Shown piece by piece: positions 24,519 to 64,000 of a stretch of DNA of 64,000 bases. The DNA comes from Thermoplasmatota archaeon (GTDB taxonomy: Archaea > Thermoplasmatota > E2 > UBA202 > JdFR-43). The notes under the pieces were generated by a model. That model did not search any database, was not told the origin of the DNA, and saw only the letters and a list, made by a program, of their open reading frames with translations. The translations under genes were made by a program, and so were the position numbers. Location: positions 5,935 to 69,934 of the forward strand of contig JAPDJP010000014.1 of the NCBI GenBank assembly GCA_029259055.1, written 5' to 3'. Position 1 is the first letter of the stretch, and every line of letters begins with the position of its first letter.

Positions 24519-24539
24519 AATTTTAAATAAAAATTTGGC

Positions 24540-25052: not shown

Positions 25053-25053
25053 A

Positions 25054-25135
25054 TGCGGGGGGTGGGATTCGAACCCACGAAGGCCTTCGCCACAGGGTCC
25101 TAAGCCCTGCGCCGTTACCGCTTGGCTACCCCCGC
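25054..25135 (-). tRNA. tRNA-Leu (anticodon TAG), long variable arm
   Basis: Minus-strand read GCGGGGGTAGCCAAGCGGTAACGGCGCAGGGCTTAGGACCCTGTGGCGAAGGCCTTCGTGGGTTCGAATCCCACCCCCCGCA. 7-bp acceptor stem, GTTCGAATC T-loop, anticodon loop CTTAGGA, long extra arm. CCA not encoded. Confidence 0.8.
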
Positions 25136-26172: not shown

Positions 26173-26367
26173 ATAAATAAATGTAATTTGGAATAAATTT
26201 TTTGTGTATTTTATAAATTTAGATTTGTTATAAGAAGCTGAGAATTAAAATTATAAAAATGGAAAAAATTTTGATATAAATTATCCAAATTTATAAATTT
26301 TATATTTTTATTTTCAATTTTGGAAAAAATTTATATAGCAAAAAGAAATAATTTTTATGGCGATTAA

Positions 26368-26619
26368 ATGAAATATTGGGTAAAAGAAGAATTAAAGCCC
26401 CCTCATGGCAAAGTGTATATAATAAAGGATAGATGTAAGGGTTGCGGTTTTTGCATAGAGTTTTGCCCACAAGGCGTTTTACAGGAATCGGAAGAATTTA
26501 ATGCCAAGGGATATCACCCACCAAAACTTGTTGAAAACGAAAAAAAATGCATAGGATGCGGTTTCTGTTCCTTGGTTTGTCCTGAATTTGCAATTTATAT
26601 TGAAAAGGAGGGGGAATAA
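26368..26619 (+). CDS. 2-oxoacid:ferredoxin oxidoreductase delta subunit (2x[4Fe-4S])
   Basis: CKGCGFCIEFCP and CIGCGFCSLVCP cluster motifs. 83 aa. Confidence 0.75.
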   Translation: MKYWVKEELKPPHGKVYIIKDRCKGCGFCIEFCPQGVLQESEEFNAKGYHPPKLVENEKKCIGCGFCSLVCPEFAIYIEKEGE

Positions 26620-26621
26620 AT

Positions 26622-27752
26622 ATGCAAGTAAAATTTTATAGTGGAAATATTGCATGTGCTGAAGGCGCAATAGCTGCTGGTTGCAGATTTTTTGCTGGTT
26701 ATCCTATAACACCTTCATCAGAGATTGCAGAACATATGGCTTTAAGATTGCCGCAAGTAGGAGGGATATTTATTCAAATGGAAGATGAACTTGCTTCGAT
26801 GGCTGCTATACTTGGTGCATCTTGGGGAGGTGCTAAAGCAATGACAGCTACATCTGGCCCGGGTTTTTCGTTAATGCAAGAAAATATTGGATTGGGAGCG
26901 ATGACGGAAACACCTTGTGTTGTTGTAAATGTTCAGAGAGCGGGCCCCTCTACCGGAATGCCCACTTTAGTTGGACAAGCGGATGTTATGCAAGCAAGAT
27001 GGGGTAGTCATGGTGATTATGAAATCATTGCCTTGAGCCCTTCTTCACCGCAAGAATGTTTTGATTTAACAATAAGAGCGTTTAATTTGGCGGAAGAATA
27101 TAGAGTTCCAGTTATTGTTTTAATGGATGAAAGTGTAAGCCATATGTTTGAAAAAGTAATTATCCCTCCTAAAGAAAAAATAAGAATTGTTAATAGAAAA
27201 AAACCAAGAGTTCCCCCTGATGAATTTCTGCCATATAAGGCAGATGATTTTATTCCTCCTATGGCTTGTGCTGGAGAAGGTTATTCGGTACATGTAACTG
27301 GTTTAACCCACGATGAAAAAGGTTATCCTCAAGCTACCTCACCAGAAGTTCAAGAAAGACTTGTGAGGAGATTATGTGATAAAATTAGGAAAAACGAAAG
27401 GAAAATGAGAGATATTGAAGAATATGAGATGGAAGATGCTGAAATTGCAATAGTTTCTTTTGGAACAACCGCAAGAAGCGCAAAAGCAGCGGTAAAGTTT
27501 GCTAGAAAAAAAGGATATAAGGTTGGATTGATAAGACTTAAAACAATATGGCCATTTCCTGATGAATATTTTGAAAGCTTGGATGGCATTAAAAAATTTC
27601 TGGTTGTAGAAGTAAATTATGGACAAATTAAATTGGAAGTGGAAAGAAATGTTGGCAAAAATAGAGTTGAATTATTACCAAAAATGGGAGGGGAAATTCA
27701 TACGCCTGAAGAAATATACAAAAAAATTAGGGAGGTGTTGCAATGGAAATAG
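26622..27752 (+). CDS. 2-oxoacid:ferredoxin oxidoreductase alpha subunit
   Basis: Typical OFOR alpha N-terminus (GNIACAEGAIAAGCRFFAGYPITPSSEI). Confidence 0.8.
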   Translation: MQVKFYSGNIACAEGAIAAGCRFFAGYPITPSSEIAEHMALRLPQVGGIFIQMEDELASMAAILGASWGGAKAMTATSGPGFSLMQENIGLGAMTETPCVVVNVQRAGPSTGMPTLVGQADVMQARWGSHGDYEIIALSPSSPQECFDLTIRAFNLAEEYRVPVIVLMDESVSHMFEKVIIPPKEKIRIVNRKKPRVPPDEFLPYKADDFIPPMACAGEGYSVHVTGLTHDEKGYPQATSPEVQERLVRRLCDKIRKNERKMRDIEEYEMEDAEIAIVSFGTTARSAKAAVKFARKKGYKVGLIRLKTIWPFPDEYFESLDGIKKFLVVEVNYGQIKLEVERNVGKNRVELLPKMGGEIHTPEEIYKKIREVLQWK

Positions 27753-28573
27753 TTGCAAAAAATCATCCTTTAGATAAATATCTCCGTACGGATCGTATCC
27801 CCCACATATGGTGCCCTGGTTGTGGTCTTGGAACTGTATTAAATTGTTTTTTGCATGCCTTAGAAGAAACAGATATTGATTTGAAAAATTTAGCCATTGT
27901 TTCTGGAATAGGATGCACTGGAAGAGTTGCTGGTTATATAAATGTTGATTCCTATCATACCACTCATGGAAGGGCGATACCATTTGCTACTGGATTAAAA
28001 CTTGCAAATCCAAAATTGAAAGTAGTTGTATTTAGTGGAGATGGAGATTTATTTGCTATAGGGGGAAATCATTTTATACATGCTGCCAGGCGAAATATAG
28101 ATATGACGGTAATATGCGTAAATAATTATAACTATGGAATGACAGGCGGACAGTTAGGACCAACTACACCTTTGGATGCAAGAACAACAACAAGTCCATA
28201 TGGAAATATTGAGCATCCTTTCAATTTATGCCATGTTGCTGCTGCATCAGGTGCTGTTTATGTTGCGAGATGGACAGCACTCCATGTTCGCCGCCTAAAA
28301 GAATCGATGAAGGAAGCATTAAACAAAAAAGGTTTTTCTTTCATAGAAGTAATCGCTTCCTGTCCTACTACTTATGGGCGCCGTAACAAAATGCCGACTG
28401 GATTAGAAACAATGAAATATTATAAAGAGCATTCCGTAATTAAGCATGGTATCGACCCATCAAAAGCAGATATTGAAATTGGTAAAGATATCGTAGTGGG
28501 AAAATTTGTTGACATTGAAAAACCTACATTTGATGAAGCTGTTCATGAATTGATAAAAAAGGCGAGAAAATGA
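27743..28573 (+). CDS. 2-oxoacid:ferredoxin oxidoreductase beta subunit (TPP-binding)
   Basis: WCPGCG..., GIGC and GDGD TPP/Mg motifs. Confidence 0.8.
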   Translation: MEIVAKNHPLDKYLRTDRIPHIWCPGCGLGTVLNCFLHALEETDIDLKNLAIVSGIGCTGRVAGYINVDSYHTTHGRAIPFATGLKLANPKLKVVVFSGDGDLFAIGGNHFIHAARRNIDMTVICVNNYNYGMTGGQLGPTTPLDARTTTSPYGNIEHPFNLCHVAAASGAVYVARWTALHVRRLKESMKEALNKKGFSFIEVIASCPTTYGRRNKMPTGLETMKYYKEHSVIKHGIDPSKADIEIGKDIVVGKFVDIEKPTFDEAVHELIKKARK

Positions 28574-49308: not shown

Positions 49309-50376
49309 ATGAAATTGCTCGAATTCCAAGGAAAAAAACTTTTTAAGGAATATGGCATACCTGTACCCCAAGGCATTGTTATTGAGAAAAAAGAGGATTT
49401 AAAAGATATAGATATTCCCTTTCCATGGGTAATGAAAGCCCAAGTTTTGGTGGGAGGAAGAGGAAAAGCAGGAGGTATTAAATTTGCAAATAATATGGAA
49501 GAAGCAATAAAGAATTTTGAAGAGCTCATAACCATGGAAATAAAGGGGGAGAAAGTAAGAAAAGTGCTTATTGAGGAGAAATTAAGGATCGAAAAGGAAT
49601 ATTATTTAAGCTTTTTTATAGATAGGAGTAGCAGAAAATATTTAATGATGTTCTCTTTTGAAGGAGGTGTCGATATAGAAGCAATGGCTGAAAAAGTAAT
49701 GAAAATTTATGTTAATCCTTTAATTGGGTTGCAACCATACCATTTAAGAAAACTGCCAAAAGAAGTGCGAGAGATTGCAAAAAAGCTGTTTCAGTTATTT
49801 ATTGAAAAGGATTGTGAGCTGGCAGAAATAAACCCTTTAGTTATTTCAAATGGATTGGCTATTGCTGCGGATTCAAAAATAATCATAGACAATAATTCCA
49901 TTTATAGGCATGAAGACTTACCAAAAGAAGATATAGAACTTACCCCTCTAGAAAGGGAGGCAAAAGAAAAAAGAATTGCTTTTGTTCAACTTGAAGGAAA
50001 TATTGGAGTTATAGCAAATGGAGCTGGTCTCACAATGGCAACTTTAGATGCATTAAATGAGTTTGATGGTAAGGGAGGGGTATTTTTAGATTTAGGAGGA
50101 ACAGATGACCCAGAAAAAGTAAAACAGGCTTTTGAATTAATGGCAAAAGCAAAACCAAAAGTGATTCTCCTAAATTTATTTGGAGGTATAACAAAATGTG
50201 ATACAGTTGCAAAAGGCATTATAGAATTTTTGCAAGAGAATAAAATCAATTGTCCCGTTATAGCTCGTATTAAGGGAATGAATGAAGAAAAAGCAAGGCA
50301 AATGCTTAAAGAATATGTTATTCCTATAGAATCTTTTAAAGAAGCTGCAAAAAAGGCAGCTGAGCTGGGTGGTTAA
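49309..50376 (+). CDS. sucC: succinyl-CoA synthetase beta subunit (ATP-grasp)
   Basis: [23 protein letters not shown]-term and ligase-CoA domain. Confidence 0.75.
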
Positions 50377-51247
50377 AATGGCTATATGGGCGGATGAAAA
50401 TATAAGGCTGCTTGTTCAAGGCATTACAGGGCATCAGGGACGTTTTCATACAAAAGCCATGATGGAATTTGGAACGAAAATCGTAGCTGGGGTGACGCCT
50501 GGCAAAGGCGGACAAGAGGTTCATGGAGTGCCAGTTTATGATAGTGTTGAAGAAGCCATGGAAATGAAGCCGAATGCAAGCATTGTTTTTGTTCCAGCCC
50601 CTTTTGCTAAAGATGCTGTTATCGAAGCATTAGATGCGGGAATAAAGCTTATTGTTGTAATAACGGAAAATATTCCTTTCCATGATACAATGCAATTTAT
50701 ACACTATGCAATATACAAAAAAGCCCGTATCATCGGACCAAATTGTCCTGGTATAGCTTCTCCAGGAAAAACAAAGATTGGAATTTTTCCAAATGTAATA
50801 TTTAAGAAAGGAAATATTGGAGTGGCTTCCCGCTCTGGAACATTAACCTATGAAATTGTAAATGCTTTGAGCAAAGAAGGCTTAGGGCAATCAACATGTG
50901 TCGGCTTAGGAGGAGACCCTATTATAGGTTCAACATTTATCGATGCTCTAAAAGCTTTTGAAAAAGATGATGAAACGCATGCAATTGTTTTGGTTGGAGA
51001 AATTGGGGGCACAGCAGAAGAAGAAGCTGCTGAATATATAGAAGCAAATGTAAGCAAGCCAGTATATGCGTATATAGCTGGGAGAACAGCTCCTCCTGGG
51101 AAAAGAATGGGGCATGCAGGAGCCATCATATCTGGTAAAAAAGGGACGGCAGAATCAAAGATAAAAGCTTTTGAAAAAGCTGGCGTAAAAGTTGCTCGTT
51201 TTCCTCATGAAATAGCAAAGTTAATTAAAAATGATAAGAGAATTTAA
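50369..51247 (+). CDS. sucD: succinyl-CoA synthetase alpha subunit
   Basis: [13 protein letters not shown]...VTPGKGG...phospho-His region GHAGAI. Confidence 0.85.
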
Positions 51248-54840: not shown

Positions 54841-54930
54841 AAAATGAGGATTGAAAACCTATACTTATATTTTTGTGTTTTACTTTTTCTATTATTTCTT
54901 TTTCGAGACTTTACATTAACTTTTTACATT

Positions 54931-54977
54931 AAAAGTATTTAAATATCCTTAAAAATATTCTAATTAGGTAGATAATC
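54931..54977 (+). promoter_or_regulatory. repeated promoter element copy A (TATA-like TTTAAATA)
   Basis: AAAAGTATTTAAATATCCTTAAAAATATTCTAATTAGGTAGATAATC then ATGCAA. Near-identical to copy B at 57039 and similar to copy C at 60851. Confidence 0.55.
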
Positions 54978-55370
54978 ATGCAAACGCAAAATCTGAAAAA
55001 AGTGTTTAGTGAGCATCCGGAGATCTTAGTAGCTTATCTATTCGGCTCTTTAGCAAAAGGAGAAGCAAATGAGAAAAGCGATGTAGATATAGGCATTCTT
55101 GTTAGTAAGAATTTCAAACCAGATAGATTTTACGAAGTGAAAATAGCTGAAGAGATAGAAAAAGAAGTTGGTTTAAGAAGAGTGGAGGTTGTGATATTAA
55201 ACGATAAACCCGTAAGCTTTCTTAACCAAGTCTTAAGATATGGTAAACTCATTTTCTGTAGAGATGATAAAGCGAGAGTTTCTTTTGAAACTATAGTAAC
55301 GAAAAAATTCATAGACCTTAAACCATATTTTGAAGAATATAATAAGATGAGGGTGTTGAAGTATGATTGA
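54978..55370 (+). CDS. minimal nucleotidyltransferase (MNT, HepT/MNT antitoxin-type)
   Basis: LFGSLAKGEANEKSDVDIGILV GS...DxD nucleotidyltransferase motif. 130 aa. Confidence 0.75.
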   Translation: MQTQNLKKVFSEHPEILVAYLFGSLAKGEANEKSDVDIGILVSKNFKPDRFYEVKIAEEIEKEVGLRRVEVVILNDKPVSFLNQVLRYGKLIFCRDDKARVSFETIVTKKFIDLKPYFEEYNKMRVLKYD

Positions 55371-55474
55371 TAAGGATTTAATAGAAGCTAAATTTGACAT
55401 AATAGAAACAATTCGCTTATTTAATTTCTTGAAGAAGATGCTTTGTAAAGATCTTGAAATTTCTTAAAAAGGTT
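55367..55474 (+). pseudogene. HepT (HEPN toxin) N-terminal remnant, 35 codons
   Basis: ATGA-overlapped ORF MIDKDLIEAKFDIIETIRLFNFLKKMLCKDLEIS. Resembles HepT N-terminus but lacks the Rx4HxY region. It runs into the 3' end of the convergent AbiEii gene. Confidence 0.45.
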
Positions 55475-56325
55475 TCAAATTCTTTAGTCGGTTTAACGAT
55501 AAACATGCTTCTTTCGAAAGGGTCTTCTAAAATTTCATTTCCGATATCGAAAAACTTTCTATTCTTTTCCAAGTTTTCTCTATATTTTTGATAATAAAGA
55601 GAAAAAAGTATCTTATCTATTATCTGTTGCTTTAATTTACTTACAAGAGTCAATTTTGGATCCACCACGAATATATCATAGAAATCTCTCAATTTTTGTT
55701 TCCTTCTTGTCAATATAGCTCTTATTTTTTCACAAAGGATTTCTTTTATATCGTAAACTACCACATTAAAAGGCTTATAAAATTCAAAAAAATCTTGAAA
55801 ATATGTTTTTTCGTTTCTATCTAACTTAGCGTTTGTTAATAATGTATTTGCTCTTCTTTCCTTAGGTTTAAACAAAATTTTCTCGACAAAATTTACTTGG
55901 ATCTTAATTATTTCTTCTTTATACCACATTTTAAACGTTACCATTCTTCCACCTCCTCCAAACTCAAAATATTTTTTATCCTCCAAATTAGAGAGAAAAT
56001 CGATATTCATCTTCTTTCCTACCAATTCAAGAAATTTTGCAAATTCATTTATTTTTTCTATCAGTTTCTTTCTTATCCTTTTCCTTCCTAATCCTTCCCA
56101 TATCTCCTGATTTAACCATGTAAAATCTAGATCAACACTAAACCTATAATATCCTAAATAACACTTTATCAAACAACTACCTCCCTTAAAGATGTAATTC
56201 CTTCCAAAGTTTTCTGAAATTTCTTTCAGAATTCTGTGAATTATAACATCTCTTTCAATTAACGATCTATTTTCTATTCCTGTTTTCTCGGCAATAAATT
56301 CAACAAATTCAGATAAGTCTGGCAT
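55417..56325 (-). CDS. AbiEii/DUF1814-family nucleotidyltransferase (type IV TA toxin)
   Basis: FKGGSCLIKCYLGYYRFSVDLDF core motif of AbiEii family. Confidence 0.65.
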   Translation of the reverse strand: MPDLSEFVEFIAEKTGIENRSLIERDVIIHRILKEISENFGRNYIFKGGSCLIKCYLGYYRFSVDLDFTWLNQEIWEGLGRKRIRKKLIEKINEFAKFLELVGKKMNIDFLSNLEDKKYFEFGGGGRMVTFKMWYKEEIIKIQVNFVEKILFKPKERRANTLLTNAKLDRNEKTYFQDFFEFYKPFNVVVYDIKEILCEKIRAILTRRKQKLRDFYDIFVVDPKLTLVSKLKQQIIDKILFSLYYQKYRENLEKNRKFFDIGNEILEDPFERSMFIVKPTKEFETFLRNFKIFTKHLLQEIK

Positions 56326-56935
56326 TTTCCATCATTCCTTTAACACTTTTTGGATAAAATTTCACATACTTTGCTAATCTTTTTCTATTCACTTTATTCC
56401 TGTATTCTTCAATAAAAGAAATAATCTTTTCTTCTGGTACAGACCTGTATCTAAAAATATAAATAAAATCTAGCAATGTTTTTTCAATATCGGAGAATGG
56501 AATTTCATCATTTTTAATCCCAAAGCTCAATAATTTTGGTTTTAACTTAATGAACTTCACTTTTTCTCCCATAACCTTTATTTCCTTTGCTCTGAAAATT
56601 TTATCGTTTATTATGAAGATAGTATCAAAAAATTCATGGGTTAAACCATTCAATCTTAATGCTGTGTACAAACCAAAATACCATTTTATCCTAAGTTTAT
56701 TCATTCCTAAGGAAAGAATTCGATAAATACTCAACGCTTTTTTCAATTTAAATTCTTCAATGTTCTTTACATAATATAACCCTCTCAGAATTCTTATCAA
56801 ATATCCATAGTAAATCATAAAGTTCAGTGTATTATCAATGTTTACCCTAAATCTTTTCAAGACTTTTTCTATTTCTTCCCTTTCTAAAACCTTTCCTCCA
56901 TATTCCGAAATCAAGTATTTTATCGCATTCCTCAT
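56309..56935 (-). CDS. AbiEi-like antitoxin/transcriptional regulator (tentative)
   Basis: Upstream, overlapping partner of AbiEii. About 200 aa with N-terminal wHTH-like region. Confidence 0.45.
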   Translation of the reverse strand: MRNAIKYLISEYGGKVLEREEIEKVLKRFRVNIDNTLNFMIYYGYLIRILRGLYYVKNIEEFKLKKALSIYRILSLGMNKLRIKWYFGLYTALRLNGLTHEFFDTIFIINDKIFRAKEIKVMGEKVKFIKLKPKLLSFGIKNDEIPFSDIEKTLLDFIYIFRYRSVPEEKIISFIEEYRNKVNRKRLAKYVKFYPKSVKGMMENARLI

Positions 56936-57038
56936 GATTGTTATTTATATAACAATAATTAAAAAAGTTTTTGGTTGTTATATAAATAACAAGATGGAAA
57001 TGACAATATTTTACGTCCTTTTATATATTTTACCACTA

Positions 57039-57087
57039 AAAAGTATTTAAATACTCTTAAAAATATTTCTAATTAGGGTAGATAATC
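57039..57087 (+). promoter_or_regulatory. repeated promoter element copy B
   Basis: AAAAGTATTTAAATACTCTTAAAAATATTTCTAATTAGGGTAGATAATC then ATGCAA. Confidence 0.55.
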
Positions 57088-58905
57088 ATGCAACGTACTT
57101 TACGAATTCCAAGCTTTGTAACACCAGAAGCATATTTTAAAGTCATAAGCGAAGAGTTAGCTCGCCGTATCCTTTCTCGACCTTACGAAGCAGATGCTTC
57201 TTTTTCCACTTACTCACAAGCTTTACCAAGCATAGAAAGTGAATATGTTACTCCTAGCAATATTTGTGTTTCTTATAATATTAATGGTAAGCCAACTTTG
57301 GAGCAATTGATTGATGGATTACCTTCAGAAGAAGAAAGAGGGATAGAGAAGATTTACAATTCGTTAAGCGAGGGGAAAAGGAAAGAGCTGTATGATGTTC
57401 TTTTCTATGATAAGCTTATTACCGATGTTGCTGATAGAAGTGAGATTAAAGAGCTTAGAAATAAAATCTACTTTTCTGAAATTGGTAAGAAAAGCAGAAA
57501 GGAAGTGAAAAGGAAAATAAGGGAGGAGATTGAGCGATATTTAGAGAATAACGTTAAGCCCATTATAGAAGAATATAGAAAAGAACTTCTTTCTCGAGCA
57601 AATGGAGAGAGCGATTTAACCAACGTAATTAATGAAATCTTTTCTCCTCAAAATGCAGGCGATTACCTAAGAGCTTTAGAATACATAAAGAAAATCGGAT
57701 TTCACAATTTTCTAGAAGAACTCGTGTTTGAAAACGAAAATCCTTCTTCTCCTGTTGAATATCTCCACGAAGCCATTGCAAGCGATGCAATGGCTGATTA
57801 TTTGCTAAGGAAAGGACTGTATCATATTAGCAAAGATGGTGCTCTTGAAAGAGCAAGCAGCTATGGAGAAATATTTCACAAGCTCTCTAAGCAAGAAAGA
57901 AAAAAAGTCAAGGAATATGAAAAGAAGCTTGGGTTGAGGAAGAGCAAGGCATTTGCAATTGGAGCTGCAAGCATTATATTAGGAGCGATAGGAGCAGCAG
58001 CTTATCATGCCTACAAAAGCGGAGAAAAGCTTAAAGGAGATGGCTCTTACTTTTTCCACAACCCTAATGATTACATAAAATATCTAAAATCAATATGGAA
58101 CAAACACAGCAACGATATTGACAACGATCGTATTCCTAATGATGTTGAGGAAAAGTATGGGTTGGATATGTTTGATGGAAAGGATGCCTGGAAAGATAAC
58201 GATGGTGACAAGTTTCCTGATTGGTTTGAAGAAAAGGTAAGTGGAACAGACCCAGTCATTCCAAATCATAGATGGGCGATCTTGGAGCATGGATTTAATA
58301 AAGGTGGGATAGGGTTATACAAAATATTTACTAAAAAATTAGGGGAGAAGGAGGTTCCTTGGGAGGCTTCGGGTTTAGGTTTCGATAAAGACAAAGTCAT
58401 ACTCCTTAAAGGTCCTAATGCAACATTTCAGAATTATCTTGATGCCATAAATGAAACGAAGCAAAAAATTTCTCCGAATGATTTTTTGGTGATAAGGATA
58501 TATGGGCATGGAGCTGAAGGGTGGTTTGGTTTTAATAACGGGAGCGAATTAAAAGATGATTATACGTCAGATTTGCATCAATATTCTGAAATAATAAAAC
58601 CAATAGAGGATGTTGAATGTGATCGTATAATCTTTTTTATAGACGCTTGTTATAGTGGTTCGGCAATACAATCATTTAAAAAAGCTTTATTTAAGTCTCC
58701 TATTATTGTATATACAAGTGGGAAAAGCGACGAAACAACTGCACCTCATATCGACAATTTTCTAAAAGCATTAGATGATAAAAAGCGGATAGAGATGGAA
58801 ACTATTTTATTTCCCTTTATGAAGCTTATAAAAGTGTATACGATGAAGTTTCAACATTTAAATATGAACCAGACTATCCTCAACAATACGATCCTTTTAA
58901 TTTAG
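57088..58905 (+). CDS. single-pass membrane protein: cytoplasmic N-domain, TM, DxDGD Ca-like motifs, extracellular legumain/GPI8-like (C13) peptidase domain
   Basis: TM AFAIGAASIILGAIGAAAYHAY at about aa 290. DNDGDKFPDWFE. His in RIYGHGAEGWF and Cys in IIFFIDACYSGSAI, paralleling legumain HG and EACESGS catalytic dyad. Confidence 0.6.
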   Translation: MQRTLRIPSFVTPEAYFKVISEELARRILSRPYEADASFSTYSQALPSIESEYVTPSNICVSYNINGKPTLEQLIDGLPSEEERGIEKIYNSLSEGKRKELYDVLFYDKLITDVADRSEIKELRNKIYFSEIGKKSRKEVKRKIREEIERYLENNVKPIIEEYRKELLSRANGESDLTNVINEIFSPQNAGDYLRALEYIKKIGFHNFLEELVFENENPSSPVEYLHEAIASDAMADYLLRKGLYHISKDGALERASSYGEIFHKLSKQERKKVKEYEKKLGLRKSKAFAIGAASIILGAIGAAAYHAYKSGEKLKGDGSYFFHNPNDYIKYLKSIWNKHSNDIDNDRIPNDVEEKYGLDMFDGKDAWKDNDGDKFPDWFEEKVSGTDPVIPNHRWAILEHGFNKGGIGLYKIFTKKLGEKEVPWEASGLGFDKDKVILLKGPNATFQNYLDAINETKQKISPNDFLVIRIYGHGAEGWFGFNNGSELKDDYTSDLHQYSEIIKPIEDVECDRIIFFIDACYSGSAIQSFKKALFKSPIIVYTSGKSDETTAPHIDNFLKALDDKKRIEMETILFPFMKLIKVYTMKFQHLNMNQTILNNTILLI

Positions 58906-59043
58906 CTAATAAAACATATTTGGCTCCTATTGTGGCGAAGGAATAACGATCAGTAGAATTGTGCTACTAATACTTCAATTGTTAATTTAAACAAAATCAA
59001 GAATAAGAAAATTTAAATAAATCCTTAGGTAAAAAATAAAATT

Positions 59044-59481
59044 ATGAAAAAGAAATTTCTAGTTGTAGTAGTACTTCTTTTTTTAATAGCCTTTACAAAG
59101 AATGTTTATGCTGCATGTAAAATTTCTTGTTATACTTGTAGTCCCTTCCAGGGTTGTCCTCAAATTCCATCTGGATGCTGGTATGAAGAAGGAAATTATG
59201 TAGAAAGAATATGTATAGTTGGAGATGTAAGTTACGGTCCTGGCGATGGGCAGGAAGAGGGTTGTGTAGATGCGGGAGATTACTGGGGATGTTCGTGTTA
59301 TGATCCTCAAGGATACTGCGGAAATGAGATTTGTTTAGCTACAAGTGAGGGATATAACGGAGCGACATGCGAAATAAAAGATCGATGCTTTTGGAGTGGT
59401 TGTGGTTGGAAAACTGTATCTGGTAAATGGGATGCATCTGAAGATAAATGTGTAAAATGTGATAGTAAAATAAAGAAATAG
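59044..59481 (+). CDS. secreted cysteine-rich small protein (signal peptide, about 24 Cys)
   Basis: MKKKFLVVVVLLFLIAFTKNVYA signal. Mature part dense in Cys/Gly/Asp/Tyr. Confidence 0.6.
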   Translation: MKKKFLVVVVLLFLIAFTKNVYAACKISCYTCSPFQGCPQIPSGCWYEEGNYVERICIVGDVSYGPGDGQEEGCVDAGDYWGCSCYDPQGYCGNEICLATSEGYNGATCEIKDRCFWSGCGWKTVSGKWDASEDKCVKCDSKIKK

Positions 59482-60296
59482 GAATTTTAGGAGATACTTC
59501 AGGAATATACGTCGGTTGTGGAGATGATAATCCCAACTCTGGCAATGGGCTATGCGAATCTGCATGTAATGAAACGGTTGCTCCAGAATGTGACGAACAT
59601 CCTCCTGGCTATCCATGTGGAACAAACAATCCCCATGCAACATGGGGGGTTTGTTGCTACGATGAGCTAACTGGAGAAACTTTTTGCGCAAGATCAGAGA
59701 ACTGCGGTCCTCCTGATGACGAAGTGAATACAGGGATTCCTTGTGATAACACAGAGGATTGTGTGACTTGTACCAATGAATGTAAATGTCCAGTACAACC
59801 ATGTGAAGATGAATGTACCTATGGAAAAAAAAGATGTAGTGGTTCTGTAGCTCAGCAATGTGGAGATTGTGACGATGATCCTTGTTATGAATGGTGTGAT
59901 GTTGAAGATTGTTCCAGCAAGTGGGATAAGTGGACATGTAAGCCTGGAACAACCAAACGTTGTTGGAAAGATGGATATTGTAGTAATGGAAACTGTTATG
60001 CAACCTATTCTTCTTGCTCTTGGTACAAAGATTGTGGTGCAGAGTGTGAAGCTGGAGATACAAAAACATGCCCTGATGGAACTGTTGTGAGTTGTGATAC
60101 TTCAACATGTACATTTCCAAGTTGTCCTTCTGAAATCCCAGAAGGAGCTATAAGAGTCTTCGTAACGTCTAAACAATATAGAGGAGATCTTGGTGGATTA
60201 GGTGGAGCGGATGCAAAATGTCAGGCGAGGGCTGACAATGTAAAAAGCATTAATCATTCGATAATCATCCGAGAATTATCTGATGAAGAAACATAA
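59469..60296 (+). CDS. cysteine-rich protein segment without own ATG; probable frameshifted continuation of 59044..59481
   Basis: Frame is open from 59469, 13 nt before the stop of the upstream Cys-rich ORF. No ATG until far downstream (track start 59724 is GTG). Same Cys-rich composition. Confidence 0.45.
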   Translation, partial: NKEIGILGDTSGIYVGCGDDNPNSGNGLCESACNETVAPECDEHPPGYPCGTNNPHATWGVCCYDELTGETFCARSENCGPPDDEVNTGIPCDNTEDCVTCTNECKCPVQPCEDECTYGKKRCSGSVAQQCGDCDDDPCYEWCDVEDCSSKWDKWTCKPGTTKRCWKDGYCSNGNCYATYSSCSWYKDCGAECEAGDTKTCPDGTVVSCDTSTCTFPSCPSEIPEGAIRVFVTSKQYRGDLGGLGGADAKCQARADNVKSINHSIIIRELSDEET

Positions 60297-60327
60297 TACG
60301 TTGATCTCTTTATCAATATGTTTTCGT

Positions 60328-60546
60328 TTACAAAAATTCCTCAATAGACTTTCTAGTTTGCTTAACTATATATTTCAATACAAATTTGCTTATCTCTTTA
60401 TGTAGTGGGACCCATGTTGTAAGAACTTTACCATTTTCCAATCGCTTTTTAAAAGTCATATGCTTTCTTGTTCTTACGTTCTTAAATCCATTTTTCTCTA
60501 GAACTTCGATTACTTTACGCTGAGGAAGAGGCTTTAATTTTACCAT
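60328..60546 (-). CDS. hicA: HicA-family toxin (YcfA-like mRNA interferase)
   Basis: LPQRKVIEVLEKNGFKNVRTRKHMTFKK pattern of HicA. 72 aa. Confidence 0.55.
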   Translation of the reverse strand: MVKLKPLPQRKVIEVLEKNGFKNVRTRKHMTFKKRLENGKVLTTWVPLHKEISKFVLKYIVKQTRKSIEEFL

Positions 60547-60775
60547 GCGCCTTACCTCTTAAAACAATAGAAGAGAACGTTATTGAAATAGACTTAAAAA
60601 CTTCAATATTTGGCTTTGGTGTGTCAGGATCTTCCATATATTCTTTAATTAAATCTTCCATATTTTCTTTTGCTTCCTTTTGAGTTTTTCCTTGGGTTGC
60701 TAACTCGAATATAGGGCAAAAAGCAATCCACCATTTATCTTCTTTAAACAAAATAATGGGAACCGGTACAGACAT
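60515..60775 (-). CDS. hicB: HicB-family antitoxin (UPF0150)
   Basis: MSVPVPIILFKEDKWWIAFCPIFELATQGKTQKEAKENMEDLIKEYMED matches HicB N-domain pattern. Start trimmed. Confidence 0.5.
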   Translation of the reverse strand: MSVPVPIILFKEDKWWIAFCPIFELATQGKTQKEAKENMEDLIKEYMEDPDTPKPNIEVFKSISITFSSIVLRGKAHGKIKASSSA

Positions 60776-60850
60776 ATCTTTATCACCTTGCATAATACTA
60801 AGTTTTGGCACATATAAATCTCTTTTCATTCAATATATATTTCACCACCA

Positions 60851-60895
60851 TCAAGCATTTAAATACCCTTAAAAATATTTCTAATAGGGGTGAGT
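60851..60895 (+). promoter_or_regulatory. repeated promoter element copy C
   Basis: TCAAGCATTTAAATACCCTTAAAAATATTTCTAATAGGGGTGAGT then ATG. Confidence 0.5.
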
Positions 60896-62770
60896 ATGCG
60901 TTTTGCCCTTCACATAAAACCAGAATACGTAGAAGCTGTGAGCAACGAGCTTTTAAAGAGAGCTAGAGGCTTGTTAGCGTATCCTATCGATACTACCAGC
61001 GTTAGAGTTTCAACAGATTTTCAGGAATACTGGAATGATAATGTGAATTACAATCCTGAGATTCCGAAAGAGATAAAAGAAATGTTAAATCTCTATGATG
61101 GTAGGGAGAAAGACAATATCTACAATGCTTTTATACAGGATAAATATATTGAGGAATTGATCAATGGAGCGAGGGAGATCAAAAGGAAAATTTACATGGA
61201 AAATGTGGGGAGAAAAAGCAGAAAGGAGATAAAAAAGGAGATAAGGCAAGCTGTAAAGAAGTATATGGAAGAAAATGCAGGATTGCTTTTAGAAAGATAT
61301 AAGGAAGAATTGAAGAGAAAAGCGGGAGATGAGTTGAAAAACAAAATAGAGGAATTTTTTTCCGCTAACAATTTGAAGGATTATTATGAAAAGTTGAGCC
61401 ACATAAAATTCGTTGGCATCGACTCTACTTTAGAAGATCCAACCAAGTCTGCTGAAGATTACTTACATTCCCTATTGAAGGAAGAGGCAGCAGCAGACTA
61501 TCTAACTAGAAAGGGGCTTTATTTCATTAGCGGAGACGGAGAGTTGAAGAGAGCAAAGAATTATAAAGAAATATTTCACAAGCTCTCTAAGCAAGAAAGG
61601 AAAAAAGTCAAGGAATATGAAAAGAAGCTTGGGTTGAGGAAGAGCAAATTATTAACATGGATATCTATTGGTAGTCTTCTAGGCTTATCAGCTGCAGCTC
61701 TTGCTTATGCTTCTATGGATCCAGACCATGATGGACTTAGAAATCTGGGCGAGATTCACCATAGAACAGATCCTCACAACCCGGATACAGACGGCGATGG
61801 TATTAACGATTATGAAGAAATATTTAAATATAATACAAATCCTCTTAAACCAGATAGCGATTATGATGGATTAACAGATTTTCAAGAAATCTTTAATTAT
61901 TCAACAGATCCGTTAGACCCGGATTGCGATAAGGATAACTTATTAGACGGTCAAGAAATTGAAAATAAAACCGATCCCTTTTCTATTGATACAGATGGGG
62001 ATTGGATAAGAGATGATCTTGAAATATTTAAACATCATACCGATCCTACAAAGTTAGATACAGACGGCGATGGTATAGATGATTTTAATGAACTTTTTAC
62101 ATATCCTCATATCTTGAATGCTACGAAAAAGGATGCCGAAAAATTACTAAGCAAGATTCCGAATGTACAGCCAATGCCATGGAATGAAAGTAATGACTAT
62201 ATTAAAGAAAATATAGGTGTTTATCCTTGGGAAGGTTTTATAGGAAGATATAAGGTAGATAATTGGGATCACATTATAATTTCTATTTCAAAGCGAGACC
62301 CATTAGTTAAGTTTTTTGCTAAGCACGCTTACATAGAATGGCTTGGACCTAAAAAAGATCCAGGAGGTGAGTGGTCCTATAGCAATGTGGGTATTCTAAA
62401 AACTTACGGTGGAAGAATATCTAAAGAATATGGAAGAGGTGGACCAGTTCAGCCGTCCCACTTCCTCACCTCTGGAAGAATCGGGACTTGTCAGCACGCG
62501 TCAGTTACTGCAGCAACACTTTTACAACTTATGGGATATGATTCAGTACTTGTTTATGGAGACTATGAACCTATTGGTCAAACATTAGGTCATCAATGGG
62601 TAGAGACTGTTATAGATGGTGAGGTATATGTTGTTAACTTTGATGGGTTAGCTCCAAGGGATGAATTTTATTTTTGGAATCCAGACCTTAAGAAAGTTGC
62701 AATTGGTGGGATAGAAGGAGCTTGTATACCTTATGACCCAGACTGGTATAAAAAAGGCTTACATGTGTAG
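60896..62770 (+). CDS. single-pass membrane protein paralog: shared cytoplasmic N-domain, TM, thrombospondin-type-3-like DxDxDGxxD repeats, extracellular transglutaminase-like Cys-His-Asp domain
   Basis: Start at ATG 60896 (track start is GTG). TM LLTWISIGSLLGLSAAALAYA. Repeats DPDHDG, DTDGDGINDYEEI, DSDYDGLTDFQEI, DTDGDGIDDFNEL. GTCQHAS ... GHQWVE ... D. Confidence 0.6.
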   Translation: MRFALHIKPEYVEAVSNELLKRARGLLAYPIDTTSVRVSTDFQEYWNDNVNYNPEIPKEIKEMLNLYDGREKDNIYNAFIQDKYIEELINGAREIKRKIYMENVGRKSRKEIKKEIRQAVKKYMEENAGLLLERYKEELKRKAGDELKNKIEEFFSANNLKDYYEKLSHIKFVGIDSTLEDPTKSAEDYLHSLLKEEAAADYLTRKGLYFISGDGELKRAKNYKEIFHKLSKQERKKVKEYEKKLGLRKSKLLTWISIGSLLGLSAAALAYASMDPDHDGLRNLGEIHHRTDPHNPDTDGDGINDYEEIFKYNTNPLKPDSDYDGLTDFQEIFNYSTDPLDPDCDKDNLLDGQEIENKTDPFSIDTDGDWIRDDLEIFKHHTDPTKLDTDGDGIDDFNELFTYPHILNATKKDAEKLLSKIPNVQPMPWNESNDYIKENIGVYPWEGFIGRYKVDNWDHIIISISKRDPLVKFFAKHAYIEWLGPKKDPGGEWSYSNVGILKTYGGRISKEYGRGGPVQPSHFLTSGRIGTCQHASVTAATLLQLMGYDSVLVYGDYEPIGQTLGHQWVETVIDGEVYVVNFDGLAPRDEFYFWNPDLKKVAIGGIEGACIPYDPDWYKKGLHV

Positions 62771-62975
62771 ACAAACTTAACGATTGAAACAATAATAAGA
62801 AGACAACAATTATCGCAACGATGAAATTCATTGCTTTGCTCTCGGAAGTGTTACCATGGTAGCTACGTGAGTTGAGATGCCAAGAAGCTTAGCTTCTCTA
62901 TTGATCAATGGAATTAACAGAACCAAATAAATTTAAATAATAAATTTGTGTTAATTAAATATATGCTGCGATATC

Positions 62976-63431
62976 TTGTTGGAATTATTCTTATTGTGTT
63001 ATTTTGTTGGAGGGGTTTTCTTCTTCACGAATATAAAAGAAAAGCCTATAAAATGTGTAAATGGAACGATTCCAAAAAGTATTTTTTGCTTAGTAGAAGA
63101 GCCGAAACTCTTACAAGAAAATAGCTACATGGAAATAAAATTCCTATTGGGAAAAAATGAAAAATTAAGTGAGAATGATTATTTAATTCTATTAACGGAT
63201 CTCGATAATGTTTCTGTTCAAAGTAATTTAAAATTCGTCAGATCAAGATATCAGTTTTCAGCGGATATAAAGAACGAAAAGAGAGTTGAAATTAACATTT
63301 CTGGTTACCTTCCGTCGAGAAACAAGGAAATATGGTTCAATAACTCCCTTATTCGCTTGCCAAATCATGTATTGTTATTCGAAATTCAAAAAACTGAGAA
63401 AGGTGTAAAGGTATATGAGATTTATGAATAG
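62976..63431 (+). CDS. small hypothetical protein with hydrophobic N-terminus
   Basis: ORF-track only. Alternative ATG at 62963 in another frame gives a 52-aa TM peptide. Neither is supported by motifs. Confidence 0.25.
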   Translation: MLELFLLCYFVGGVFFFTNIKEKPIKCVNGTIPKSIFCLVEEPKLLQENSYMEIKFLLGKNEKLSENDYLILLTDLDNVSVQSNLKFVRSRYQFSADIKNEKRVEINISGYLPSRNKEIWFNNSLIRLPNHVLLFEIQKTEKGVKVYEIYE

Positions 63432-64000
63432 AACTTTACTTATTACTTTGATATTGTTATTATCACTATTGAGCATTGGATATGCTCCAGATACATGTCC
63501 AATATGCACTCTAAGATATTGTTGTAGTCCGGGATATTGTGATGAAGGTACTATAACTTATTGGACACCAGCTCCATGTACCCATAATCCTGGTGCCCAA
63601 GAATCATCTTGTACAGCAGGTCAGTGGTCTCCATGCCCACAGAATGTGTGGAAGTGCTATGATTATTGTGTTCAGACAAGTGATGAAGAGTGTCCAACAG
63701 ATGAACCATATTGTTATATTATCCAACCAGATCCTAATCCACCTTGTACAGATAACGGGGTACCTGAAGTAGAGCATGGATACTGCGTAGAGTGCTATGA
63801 AAATTATCATTGTCCAGGAACTGATGATGCTTGTGAATGCGGAAAAGATTTTACTTGTAAACCATGTTCTGAAAATGAATATTGTGATAAAAATAGATGC
63901 CGATCAAAGAAAAAATGTGGGACTGGGGTGGGGGAGATGTGTAAGGGATATAATGTAGCAGAATGTGATTTCTTCTATTGTAGCAGAGAAGGAGAGTGTG
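63424..64000 (+). CDS. secreted cysteine-rich protein, 3'-partial (runs off window)
   Basis: ATG at 63424 gives MNRTLLITLILLLSLLSIGYA signal then CPICTLRYCCSPGYCDEG... Cys-rich to window end. Absent from ORF track because there is no stop. Confidence 0.55.
   Translation, partial: MNRTLLITLILLLSLLSIGYAPDTCPICTLRYCCSPGYCDEGTITYWTPAPCTHNPGAQESSCTAGQWSPCPQNVWKCYDYCVQTSDEECPTDEPYCYIIQPDPNPPCTDNGVPEVEHGYCVECYENYHCPGTDDACECGKDFTCKPCSENEYCDKNRCRSKKKCGTGVGEMCKGYNVAECDFFYCSREGEC

What the first reader, a model, noticed from the sequence alone, without database searches (positions are those of the whole stretch)
54931..62770. Paralogous membrane proteins with swapped extracellular domains (C13/legumain-like vs transglutaminase-like) and a near-identical 81-nt tract
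ORFs 57088..58905 and 60896..62770 share a roughly 290-aa charged N-terminal domain and one TM helix. Just before the helix there is an 81-nt tract identical except for 1 nt (57868..57948 vs 61568..61648, encoding EIFHKLSKQERKKVKEYEKKLGLRKSK). After the helix both carry DxDGD Ca-binding-like motifs, and then the domains diverge completely. One has a His-Cys dyad embedded exactly like legumain/GPI8 transamidases (YGHG ... FIDACYSGS). The other has a transglutaminase-like Cys-His-Asp core (GTCQHAS ... GHQWVE). Both families catalyse transpeptidation or cross-linking. The neighbours are secreted Cys-rich proteins. The identical tract looks like a recombination/gene-conversion handle for C-terminal cassette exchange. 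I do not know this architecture as described.
Basis: partly seen in the sequence, partly recalled or inferred. Interest (0 to 1): 0.85.

Follow-up and report, generated by a model that had tools for sequence, protein, structure and literature searches.

The report
Archaeal surface-enzyme genes shuffled at shared tract
Two neighbouring archaeal membrane-protein genes carry unrelated outward-facing enzyme domains behind a related inner domain, and the 80-base stretch they share almost letter for letter is where a related population recombined the two gene types; this way of shuffling genes is already known, but it is a new example built on an otherwise unknown protein domain.

Summary
Genes A (57088-58905) and B (60896-62770) share a helical N-domain with no known relatives (34% identity without the tract, E 2e-35), then a 27-aa basic segment, one TM helix, acidic Ca-type repeats and unrelated catalytic domains. 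A is clan-CD/C13-like, with its His474/Cys521 aligned to the legumain dyad. B is transglutaminase-like, with Cys532/His566/Asp583. The 80-nt tract (57868-57947 vs 61568-61647) is 79/80 identical against about 50% elsewhere.

The main new evidence is a related population (L003/L004) that encodes a natural chimera. It is B-like up to the tract (92-93%) and A-like straight after it (97%), so the switch of parentage lies inside the tract. That copy has three private synonymous changes, so the A=B identity reflects homogenisation within one genome, not a fixed nucleotide motif.

Both genes lie in a roughly 9.8-kb strain-specific island rich in toxin-antitoxin genes. The island is absent between the SAM-synthetase and UbiA genes of close Thermoplasmatota relatives, and a related island sits at another chromosomal site in L003.

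The closest precedents are the central conserved region of the S. aureus lpl genes and polymorphic-toxin-style cassette exchange. Biochemical function is unproven, and the structure predictions failed. I rate this a new variant of a known kind, of moderate interest.

The parts
54876..64000 (.). Strain-specific genomic island of about 9.8 kb that runs about 670 nt past the window end. It contains MNT, AbiEii/AbiEi, gene A, a Cys-rich pseudogene, HicAB, gene B, a small partner gene and further Cys-rich ORFs.
   Evidence: In relatives L009, L010 and L007 the SAM-synthetase gene lies about 60 nt from UbiA. In the source contig L001, homology stops at 5858 and resumes at about 15657-15671 (window = L001 + 49017). 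None of 80 Thermoplasmata loci around SAM synthetase carries these genes.
54914..54971 (+). Promoter/5'UTR module, copy 1, upstream of the MNT gene at 54978-55370.
   Evidence: The motif AAGYATTTAAATAYYCTTAAAAATATT occurs only 3 times in 64 kb, against 0 expected. This copy is 93% identical over 55 nt to the copy upstream of gene A, including the ATGCAA start.
57022..57079 (+). Promoter/5'UTR module, copy 2 (BRE/TATA-like TTTAAATA), upstream of gene A.
   Evidence: (D4). It is 86% identical to copy 3, whereas the adjacent coding DNA is about 50% identical.
57088..57867 (+). Gene A, N-domain type A (aa 1-260). It is charged, predicted helical, has no signal peptide, and is inferred to be cytoplasmic.
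   Evidence: No Pfam, NCBIfam, PHROG or PADLOC family matches. A profile search of 1.84 billion representative proteins finds only A, B, P0004 and the fragment P0005. The AF2 model is helical with pLDDT 52.
57868..57947 (+). Tract, copy A (encodes EIFHKLSKQERKKVKEYEKKLGLRKSK). It is the basic juxtamembrane segment and the crossover site.
57949..58172 (+). Gene A TM helix (aa 288-309) plus a conserved juxtamembrane ectodomain segment running to EEKYGL.
   Evidence: This segment is 97% identical in nucleotides and amino acids to the L003 chimera and 66% in amino acids to P0001. Identity collapses after 58172.
58240..58902 (+). Gene A clan-CD (C13/caspase-like) domain, with His474 (58507-58509) and Cys521 (58648-58650).
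59044..60296 (+). Cys-rich secreted protein gene of the DUF1554 family. It is apparently split by a frameshift near 59478 and cut short at its 3' end next to HicA.
   Evidence: NCBIfam LenA/LenB gives a weak hit. The intact 645-aa homologue in L003 has PF07588.
60328..60829 (-). HicA/HicB-like toxin-antitoxin pair lying between the two tract copies.
   Evidence: Pfam HicA_toxin scores 36.7 bits. The pair is conserved at 91-100% amino-acid identity in L003/L004.
60834..60891 (+). Promoter/5'UTR module, copy 3, upstream of gene B.
60896..61567 (+). Gene B, N-domain type B (aa 1-224).
   Evidence: It is 92% identical in nucleotides to L003 3688-4359.
61568..61647 (+). Tract, copy B.
61649..62098 (+). 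Gene B TM helix (aa 252-272) followed by about five TSP3-type Ca-binding repeats (aa 275-401).
   Evidence: Pfam TSP3_bac scores 46.7 bits. Direct repeats have a 69-nt period (D1). Thermococcus ARP-like proteins match at 55% over the repeats.
62105..62767 (+). Gene B transglutaminase-like domain, with Cys532 (62489-62491), His566 (62591-62593) and Asp583 (62642-62644).
62976..63431 (+). Small membrane-anchored partner protein (151 aa) downstream of B.
   Evidence: It is homologous (33%, E 6e-19) to the 166-aa gene that follows the chimera in L003/L004. No family matches it.

Best explanation
A and B are tandem paralogues encoding single-pass membrane proteins. I infer that the N-terminus is inside the cell and the C-terminus outside. 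Each gene is a mosaic of modules: a shared promoter/5'UTR module; one of two anciently diverged helical N-domains with no known relatives; a 27-aa basic juxtamembrane segment encoded by the near-identical 80-nt tract; a TM helix; acidic Ca-binding (TSP3-type) repeats; and a Cys-dependent catalytic ectodomain that is either clan-CD/C13-like or transglutaminase-like.

The tract is the only stretch in the two genes similar enough for homologous recombination. Recombination or gene conversion there keeps the two copies identical within a genome. On an evolutionary time scale it also re-assorts everything upstream (promoter plus N-domain) with everything downstream (TM, ectodomain and following genes).

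Shown here: the paralogy; the tract identity including synonymous sites; the domain assignments at profile level; a natural recombinant whose parentage switches inside the tract; the location in a strain-specific island that sits at different chromosomal sites in related genomes.

Inferred: the topology; that the recombination is RadA-type homologous exchange rather than site-specific; that the ectodomains are active surface (trans)peptidases or cross-linkers acting on extracellular proteins, possibly the co-encoded secreted Cys-rich DUF1554-type proteins; that HicAB between the direct repeats counter-selects deletion of the interval.

My confidence is about 0.85 for the architecture, about 0.7 for the recombination role of the tract, and about 0.25 for any specific substrate.
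For: N-domain homology without the tract is E 2e-35, and the ectodomains are unrelated.

Chimera P0004: its N-domain is 92% identical to B in amino acids. In nucleotides, the region before the tract is 92-93% identical to B and 47% to A. The 225 nt after the tract are 97% identical to A and 43% to B. At the single A/B SNP the chimera is B-like, so the crossover lies in the last ~47 nt of the tract. The contig was assembled by MEGAHIT with k=141, longer than the 80-nt repeat, and is reproduced exactly in a JGI assembly.

The L003 tract carries three private synonymous changes, a divergence similar to its flanks. Identity within the window genome is therefore concerted evolution, not a nucleotide-level constraint. 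Same-codon use outside the tract (52%) equals the expectation from codon bias, so the A/B duplication is old.

The N-domain-less homologue P0001 has TM, juxtamembrane segment, TSP3 repeats and C13 domain but no tract. The tract therefore belongs to the N-module, and the fusion point is the end of the tract.

The mosaic continues downstream: the TM/juxtamembrane segment is 97% identical between A and P0004, the TSP3 region 84% between P0004 and P0001, and the C13 cores only 25-33%.

There is no recombinase gene in the island, and the repeats are direct.

Precedent: in the S. aureus lpl cluster, a 132-nt central conserved region is the recombination site that shuffles the 5' and 3' variable regions (PMC2568036).
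Against: Only one recombinant is known. L003 and L004 are 100% identical over 6.4 kb and may come from the same reads, so they count as one observation. The family is tiny: three full-length proteins in 1.84 billion cluster representatives. Recurrent exchange therefore cannot be demonstrated or dated.

The L003 locus differs from the window by more than one event: an A-type N fragment is joined to a DUF1554 remnant, and the island sits at a different chromosomal site. Its history is not a simple reciprocal exchange.

Domain scores are marginal, at 22-25 bits. Both AlphaFold models were of low confidence (pLDDT 52 and 43) and the Foldseek results were meaningless. Neither the folds nor the topology nor any activity is verified.

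The direct-repeat orientation means that intragenomic crossover would delete 3.7 kb, not swap cassettes. No such deletion product was seen.
Confidence: 0.7

Rival explanations
1. This is a polymorphic-toxin-like or self/non-self system. The N-domain plus tract would be the constant 'body', the ectodomains would be exchangeable effector 'warheads' (Tox-caspase and Tox-transglutaminase types are known in such systems), and the small downstream protein would be a cognate immunity or partner protein. Cassette exchange would serve conflict between cells.
For: The C-terminal module was exchanged at a conserved junction. Caspase-like and transglutaminase domains are listed as toxin or processing domains of polymorphic toxins, and cassette replacement by a single recombination at the 3' part of the gene is the defining mechanism (PMC3482391). 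A small membrane-anchored gene follows B and the chimera. The setting is a variable island rich in toxin-antitoxin genes. The catalytic cores are hypervariable (25-33%) next to conserved segments. An archaeal precedent for hypervariable modules is VARTIG (PMC8416519).
Against: The 'body' is not constant: the A and B N-domains are only 34% identical. There is no signal peptide and no known trafficking domain, and the N-domain should be cytoplasmic. The partner proteins after a transglutaminase gene (B) and after a C13 gene (the chimera) are homologous to each other (33%), and A has no partner at all, which does not fit toxin-specific immunity. There are no orphan C-terminal cassettes and no further tract copies in 64 kb. 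A membrane-tethered ectoenzyme has no evident delivery route.
Confidence: 0.18
2. The tract is only a passive footprint of one recent short gene conversion between paralogues, or of the fusion event itself. It has no continuing role, and the position of the L003 breakpoint is coincidental or merely reflects the domain boundary.
For: Only two populations are known, so recurrence is unproven. Protein-level constraint on a basic juxtamembrane helix would help preserve similarity (the AF2 segment 200-245 has pLDDT 70-89).
Against: Two independent signals coincide on the same 80 nt: identity within one genome, and a parentage switch between genomes. Once identical, an 80-nt tract is a substrate for homologous recombination whether or not it was selected for. 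The same pattern in S. aureus lpl is recurrent.
Confidence: 0.15
3. The nucleotide identity is kept by selection on the RNA or DNA itself, for example an sRNA or regulator target, an mRNA structure, or a translational pause on the A-rich lysine codons before membrane insertion. Recombination would not be the cause.
For: The tract is A-rich (AAAGAAAAAAAG) and lies immediately 5' of the TM-coding segment. The promoter modules are also conserved, which hints at co-regulation.
Against: The orthologous tract in L003/L004 has three synonymous substitutions, about the same divergence as its flanks. No RNA structure is predicted (z = +1.06). The identity ends exactly where homology between the two proteins ends.
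Confidence: 0.05
4. The pattern is an assembly or binning artefact: a collapsed or duplicated repeat, or chimeric contigs.
For: All the data are metagenome assemblies, and repeats of about 80 nt can mis-join short-k assemblies.
Against: The window and L001 are separate assemblies that differ by 14 SNPs and give the same structure. The chimera contig was built with k=141, longer than the repeat, and was recovered identically by JGI. The copies differ by one SNP, and the flanks are unique.
Confidence: 0.02

Closest known systems
Central conserved region of the tandem lpl lipoprotein paralogues in the Staphylococcus aureus nuSa-alpha island (Tsuru & Kobayashi 2008, PMC2568036)
   Same: Both involve tandem, same-strand paralogues for surface proteins in a genomic island. 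A short internal tract (132 nt there, 80 nt here) is conserved at nucleotide level between much more divergent 5' and 3' regions. Rearrangement breakpoints between genomes fall on the tract, shuffling 5' and 3' halves. No dedicated recombinase is involved (searches compared).
   Different: This case is archaeal. There are only two copies, not a large cluster. The 3' halves are non-homologous catalytic domains rather than diverged versions of one domain. The tract sits at a cytoplasm/TM boundary. Recurrence is not shown here.
Polymorphic toxin systems (Zhang et al. 2012, PMC3482391)
   Same: C-terminal modules are exchanged by recombination at a conserved junction. Caspase-like and transglutaminase-like domains are among the known C-terminal modules. 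Small downstream genes are present, and the loci lie in variable islands.
   Different: The N-terminal part here is not constant. There is no secretion or trafficking domain, no toxin-matched immunity pattern and no silent cassette array. The protein stays membrane-anchored.
VARTIG hypervariable module of Thermococcales (Makarova et al. 2021, PMC8416519)
   Same: Both are archaeal, hypervariable, recombination-shuffled C-terminal regions of a surface protein with variable downstream genes, compared by their authors to polymorphic toxins.
   Different: VARTIG is built on Ig domains in a large secreted protein. There is no sequence relationship, the lineage differs, and no defined short tract is described there.
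Legumain/GPI8 (MEROPS C13) and other clan-CD peptidases (metacaspases, caspases)
   Same: The order and local context of the His-Gly and Ala-Cys-x-Ser-Gly catalytic dyad agree. The best PDB profile hits are legumains (E 2e-4), then metacaspases. The Pfam PF01650 score is above the gathering threshold.
   Different: Only about 80 of the 258 model positions align. Specificity-pocket residues could not be aligned. The fold was not confirmed. No evidence bears on transamidase versus hydrolase activity. The domain is attached to a TM anchor and a cytoplasmic domain that are unknown for C13.
Archaeal 'calcium-binding acidic-repeat protein' type: TSP3 repeats plus a transglutaminase-like domain (e.g. 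Thermococcus sp. 2319x1, P0093, PF18884+PF04473)
   Same: The ectodomain plan matches that of B: a run of TSP3 Ca-binding repeats (55% identical over the repeats) followed by a Cys/His papain-like core.
   Different: P0093 has a signal peptide in place of the N-domain, tract and TM. The catalytic cores are not detectably similar by BLAST, and the profile-profile comparison is weak (probability 16%).
P0001 (JGI 3300005099), an N-domain-less homologue of A
   Same: It has the same TM, juxtamembrane segment (66%), TSP3 repeats and C13 ectodomain, and it also lies beside an MNT-type nucleotidyltransferase gene.
   Different: It lacks the N-domain and the tract, showing that these were added as a separate module.

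Membership tests
Peptidase C13 / clan CD (caspase-haemoglobinase fold) | Family profile score above the curated threshold | tested here: met
   PF01650 scores 24.6 bits against GA 22.8, covering aa 462-549 = model positions 106-185 of 258. This is marginal and partial. Precomputed PF01650 hits also exist on homologues P0001 and P0004.
Peptidase C13 / clan CD (caspase-haemoglobinase fold) | Catalytic His then Cys, each at the end of a hydrophobic strand (H-G ... A-C-x-S-G) | tested here: met
   A profile of A, P0004 and P0001 aligns aHG to the legumain HG and DaCySGS to EACESGS. His474 and Cys521 are invariant in the three proteins.
Peptidase C13 / clan CD (caspase-haemoglobinase fold) | Alpha/beta caspase-like fold | tested here: inconclusive
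   The AF2 model has pLDDT 43. The strand-helix-strand elements around His and Cys reach pLDDT 60-75, but Foldseek finds no meaningful match.
Peptidase C13 / clan CD (caspase-haemoglobinase fold) | C13-specific Asn/Asp S1 pocket and transamidase/ligase activity | not testable with these tools
   The pocket residues lie outside the aligned 80 positions, and activity needs an enzyme assay.
Transglutaminase-like superfamily (PF01841, papain-like) | Family profile score above the curated threshold | tested here: inconclusive
   The full-length protein scores 22.4 bits against GA 23. The isolated C-domain scores 24.2 bits, E 4e-5.
Transglutaminase-like superfamily (PF01841, papain-like) | Cys-His-Asp triad in canonical order and spacing | tested here: met
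   GTC532QHAS, GH566QWVE and NFD583 fall within model positions 39-104 of 108. Cys and His align to the Thermococcus PF04473 cores, though with low probability.
Transglutaminase-like superfamily (PF01841, papain-like) | Papain-like fold | not tested
PDB phmmer found nothing for the domain.
Bacterial-type TSP3 Ca-binding repeats (PF18884) | Repeated DxDxDGxxD motifs scoring above threshold | tested here: met
   B scores 46.7 bits against GA 25 and has 69-nt periodic repeats. A has only a weak signal (NCBIfam MtsD, E 1e-3).
Polymorphic toxin systems | Constant N-terminal body with a recognised secretion/trafficking domain | tested here: not met
   The N-domains are 34% identical, with no signal peptide and no family hit in four libraries.
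Polymorphic toxin systems | C-terminal domain replaced by recombination at a conserved junction | tested here: met
   The P0004 chimera.
Polymorphic toxin systems | Toxin-specific immunity gene immediately downstream, and silent toxin-immunity cassettes | tested here: not met
   The partners after a transglutaminase gene and after a C13 gene are homologous to each other, and A has none. There are no extra tract copies in the window.
Central-conserved-region tandem paralogue clusters (S. aureus lpl type) | Same-strand tandem paralogues with an internal nucleotide-conserved tract between divergent 5' and 3' regions | tested here: met
Central-conserved-region tandem paralogue clusters (S. aureus lpl type) | Rearrangement breakpoints between genomes located at the tract | tested here: met
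   This rests on one recombinant lineage only.
Central-conserved-region tandem paralogue clusters (S. aureus lpl type) | [quoted passage not shown] | tested here: inconclusive
   The block 60142-61647 (DUF1554 remnant, HicAB, promoter, B N-domain, tract) is shared at 93% with L003. Its left end, however, lies in the Cys-rich gene and not in a tract.
Site-specific shufflons / invertible cassette systems | Inverted repeat sites plus a dedicated recombinase | tested here: not met
   The tracts are direct repeats on the same strand, and no recombinase or integrase gene lies in or next to the island.

The most novel reading that the evidence does not exclude
This may be an archaeal 'polymorphic ectoenzyme' system. 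A previously unknown cytoplasmic domain would be coupled, through a dedicated 80-nt recombination handle, to interchangeable Ca-dependent cysteine (trans)peptidase or cross-linking ectodomains. These would act on co-encoded Cys-rich secreted proteins or on neighbouring cells. That would give uncultured hydrothermal Thermoplasmatota a strain-variable surface chemistry for conflict or self/non-self recognition, with the TA modules inside the array stabilising it against repeat-mediated deletion.
Probability: 0.15. Interest if true: 0.75.

Novelty: new variant of a known kind. Interest (0 to 1): 0.5.

Why it matters
This is a clean, nucleotide-resolved example in archaea of how a very short tract of identity lets otherwise diverged paralogues re-assort whole domains. 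Here the exchanged ectodomains are two unrelated catalytic types, attached to two old versions of a cytoplasmic domain. It also defines a new protein domain with no detectable relatives in 1.84 billion representative proteins. Finally, it marks a strain-specific island, rich in toxin-antitoxin genes, that encodes surface enzymes and Cys-rich secreted proteins in an uncultured Thermoplasmatota lineage. If the exchange proves recurrent, it would extend the concept of polymorphic surface or toxin systems to membrane-anchored archaeal ectoenzymes. Otherwise it remains an instructive but lineage-restricted case of mosaic gene evolution.

Tried and rejected
1. The search for homologous proteins with the B N-domain found nothing. 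It did not even find B itself, although B is in the collection, so that negative result is uninformative. It was replaced by the exhaustive HMM search.

2. The scan of GTDB species-representative genomes and the JGI metagenome scan with N-domain patterns found no relatives. An exact-DNA scan for the tract recovered only the L004 contig. Three viral-contig scans were negative: one exact-DNA scan for the tract and two protein-pattern scans, one for the N-domain and one for A's TM-to-C-terminus region.

3. The search with the whole B ectodomain was swamped by TSP3 repeats. I should have excluded the repeats. It still gave the Thermococcus ARP-type precedent.

4. AF2 gave low-confidence models for the N-domain (pLDDT 52) and the A ectodomain (pLDDT 43), and the Foldseek searches were meaningless. 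No structural conclusion is drawn from them.

5. The RNA-structure hypothesis for the tract is rejected (z = +1.06).

6. A search for terminal repeats or att-like sites at the island ends, in the window and in L003, found none that were convincing.

7. Island GC content does not differ from the rest of the window, so composition gives no sign of foreign origin.

8. PHROGs gave no hits, and PADLOC gave only a weak caspase hit for A, so there is no link to known defence systems beyond the flanking AbiE, MNT and HicAB genes.

9. A simple one-step reciprocal-exchange history for L003 was considered and rejected. The locus also has a 2.8-kb deletion-like junction (57339|60142) and lies at another chromosomal site.

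Full report
**Observation.** The two ORFs are present as described: A at 57088-58905 (605 aa) and B at 60896-62770 (624 aa). The near-identical stretch is 57868-57947 vs 61568-61647, which is 79/80 identical. The tract occurs only twice in the 64-kb window.

In a codon alignment, the rest of the N-domain is 45-58% identical at nucleotide level, rising abruptly to 96-99% over the tract. Among identical residues, the same codon is used at 25 of 27 positions inside the tract and 43 of 82 outside (binomial P 8e-6). Codon usage alone gives about 2e-7 for 26 or more of 27. The longest run with at most one mismatch is 81 nt, against at most 40 in 5000 codon shuffles. The 52% same-codon rate outside the tract matches the codon-bias expectation, so the duplication is old and only the tract is young.

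A second assembly of a nearly identical strain (L001, 14 SNPs over about 15 kb, none in either tract) shows the same structure.

**Protein anatomy.** Without the tract, the N-domains are still clearly homologous (34% over 260 aa, E 2e-35), while the ectodomains are unrelated. Each protein has a single hydrophobic helix (A 288-309, B 252-272), preceded by the basic KKLGLRKSK and followed by acidic sequence. Together with the absence of a signal peptide and the extracellular-type TSP3 repeats, this implies an N-in/C-out topology, which is an inference.

B carries about five TSP3_bac repeats (46.7 bits), followed by a transglutaminase-like core. That core scores 22.4 bits in the full-length protein and 24.2 bits when scanned alone, against a gathering score of 23. 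It contains Cys532, His566 and Asp583.

A carries a conserved juxtamembrane segment, a short acidic region, and a clan-CD domain. Pfam Peptidase_C13 scores 24.6 bits against 22.8. Weak caspase hits appear in NCBIfam and PADLOC. A three-sequence profile hits legumains first in the PDB (E 2e-4), then metacaspases, with His474 and Cys521 aligned to the legumain dyad.

These results support clan-level assignments. They do not establish legumain/GPI8-type transamidase chemistry. AlphaFold2 models of the N-domain (pLDDT 52, all-helical with one small hairpin) and of the A ectodomain (pLDDT 43) were too poor for fold searches.

**The N-domain has no known relatives.** It matches no Pfam, NCBIfam, PHROG or PADLOC family. 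An exhaustive HMM search of 1.84 billion cluster representatives found only five entries: A, B, a third protein P0004, a 71-aa fragment P0005, and a spurious eukaryotic repeat protein. GTDB species representatives, the JGI metagenome collection and viral contigs gave nothing more. The 90% clusters hold one or two members each.

**The decisive comparative evidence.** P0004 (634 aa) is encoded on ENA contig k141_432769 (L003) and on an identical JGI contig (L004). It has a B-type N-domain (92% amino-acid identity), then the tract, then an A-type TM and juxtamembrane segment, and a C13 ectodomain.

At nucleotide level, L003 is 92-93% identical to B and 47% to A up to the tract. It is 96% and 95% identical to the two window copies within the tract. 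It is 97% identical to A and 43% to B in the 225 nt after the tract. At the single A/B SNP it is B-like, so the switch lies in the last ~47 nt of the tract.

The contig was assembled with k=141, which is longer than the repeat. L003 and L004 are 100% identical, so I count them as one observation made by two assemblers.

The L003 tract has three private synonymous substitutions, a divergence similar to its flanks. This argues against a nucleotide-level functional constraint and for homogenisation of A and B within one genome. The tract RNA shows no significant structure (z = +1.06).

**Modules beyond the tract.** P0001 is a more distant homologue with TM, juxtamembrane segment, TSP3 repeats and C13 domain, but with no N-domain and no tract. 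The N-domain and tract are therefore a separate module fused at the TM boundary.

Similarity is discordant along the C13 genes. The TM/juxtamembrane segment is 97% identical between A and P0004. The TSP3 region is 84% identical between P0004 and P0001. The catalytic cores are only 25-33% identical in all pairs.

A 27-nt promoter-like motif (BRE/TATA context) occurs only three times in the window: upstream of the MNT gene, of A and of B. The A and B copies are 86% identical over 58 nt, and the MNT and A copies are 93% identical over 55 nt including the start codon. This may be a second, 5' region of shared identity.

**Genomic setting.** SAM-synthetase relatives identify the organism as an uncultured Thermoplasmatota lineage: 92% identity to a 'Thermoplasmatales' MAG and 89% to JdFR-43. 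In JdFR-43 and two other relatives, the SAM-synthetase gene lies about 60 nt from UbiA. In the source genome, about 9.8 kb (window ~54876 to ~64673) is inserted there.

The island contains, in order:
- MNT;
- AbiEii/AbiEi (PADLOC 267 bits);
- gene A;
- a Cys-rich DUF1554-family gene that looks frameshifted and cut short at its 3' end;
- HicAB;
- gene B;
- a 151-aa partner protein;
- further Cys-rich ORFs.

None of the 80 related loci carries these genes. In L003, a related 5.6-kb island lies between genes whose orthologues are adjacent in the window (23550-26206 and 26365-27820). The island therefore occupies different chromosomal sites in related genomes. No recombinase, terminal repeats or compositional anomaly were found.

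The L003 island also holds a 71-aa A-type N fragment joined directly to the DUF1554 remnant/HicAB block (window 57339|60142). Its history therefore involves more than one event.

**Mechanism.** The best-supported reading is that the tract is the only part of these genes similar enough for homologous recombination. Exchange there both homogenises the copies and re-assorts the upstream and downstream modules.

This is the pattern described for the 132-nt central conserved region of the S. aureus lpl tandem paralogues, where breakpoints between genomes fall on the conserved tract and the 5' and 3' variable regions are shuffled (PMC2568036). It also resembles cassette replacement in polymorphic toxin systems, which include caspase-like and transglutaminase-like C-terminal modules (PMC3482391), and the VARTIG module of Thermococcales (PMC8416519).

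Membership in polymorphic toxin systems is not supported, for four reasons:
- The N-terminal part is neither constant nor a trafficking domain.
- The partner proteins following a transglutaminase gene and a C13 gene are homologous to each other (33%).
- A has no partner.
- No silent cassettes are present.

Because the two tracts are direct repeats, intragenomic crossover would delete the 3.7-kb interval, including HicAB. That the TA pair counter-selects such deletions is my inference.

**Function.** The ectodomains retain complete catalytic residues and Ca-binding repeats, and in both islands they sit next to secreted Cys-rich proteins. A role as membrane-anchored surface (trans)peptidases or cross-linkers acting on extracellular proteins is plausible but untested. 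I give any specific substrate low confidence.

**Verdict.** The mechanism is a new variant of a known kind. The protein architecture and the N-domain are new but restricted to one lineage. Interest is moderate (0.5).

Noticed in passing
window 59044-60296: The two 'Cys-rich neighbour' ORFs look like a single DUF1554-family secreted-protein gene. It appears split by a frameshift near 59478: the second frame is open upstream to that point. Its 3' end is cut short at 60296 beside HicA. The same truncated remnant plus HicAB is present in L003 2938-3641, while L003 also has an intact 645-aa homologue (PF07588).
   Followed up: partly
window 54933-54959, 57041-57067, 60853-60879: A 27-nt promoter-like motif, AAGYATTTAAATAYYCTTAAAAATATT, is found only three times in 64 kb: upstream of the MNT gene, gene A and gene B. 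The MNT and A copies share 17/17 nt across the start codon (GGTAGATAATCATGCAA). This suggests co-regulation or a second recombination-homogenised module.
   Followed up: partly
window 56938-56992: There is a perfect 18-nt inverted repeat, TTGTTATTTATATAACAA / TTGTTATATAAATAACAA, with a 19-nt spacer. It lies between the start of the AbiEi gene and the promoter of gene A. It could be an AbiEi operator or a bidirectional terminator.
   Followed up: no
window 26206-26365, compared with L003 2610-8220: This 160-nt intergenic site, between a TrmB/MarR-like gene and the ferredoxin/POR operon, is empty in the window genome. In the related L003 genome it holds a 5.6-kb island with the chimeric gene. 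No target duplications or terminal repeats were evident.
   Followed up: partly
window 54978-56935: An MNT-type nucleotidyltransferase gene stands alone, without a HEPN partner, next to a complete AbiEii/AbiEi pair. In L002, an MNT/HEPN pair lies directly beside the N-domain-less C13 gene P0001. These membrane-protein genes therefore recur next to nucleotidyltransferase TA modules.
   Followed up: no
window 58173-58902 compared with P0004 and P0001: The C13 catalytic cores are only 25-33% identical among the three known proteins, although the adjacent segments are 84-97% identical. A has also lost most TSP3 repeats and the D-x-N-x-D-G-like motif near the C-terminus. This could reflect rapid diversification, further cassette exchange or incipient decay.
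   Followed up: partly
window 63424-64000 (L001 14407-15486): Two further Cys-rich ORFs (62 aa with a signal peptide, and 285 aa) follow the 151-aa partner gene and run off the window. They may be another split Cys-rich secreted-protein gene at the right end of the island.
   Followed up: no
window 49309-51247 (L001 292-2230): Just upstream of the island region are genes with ATP-grasp_2/Citrate_synth_N/Ligase_CoA and CoA_binding/Succ_CoA_lig domains. This looks like a citryl-CoA or succinyl-CoA synthetase-like pair and hints at reverse-TCA-type carbon metabolism in this Thermoplasmatota lineage.
   Followed up: no
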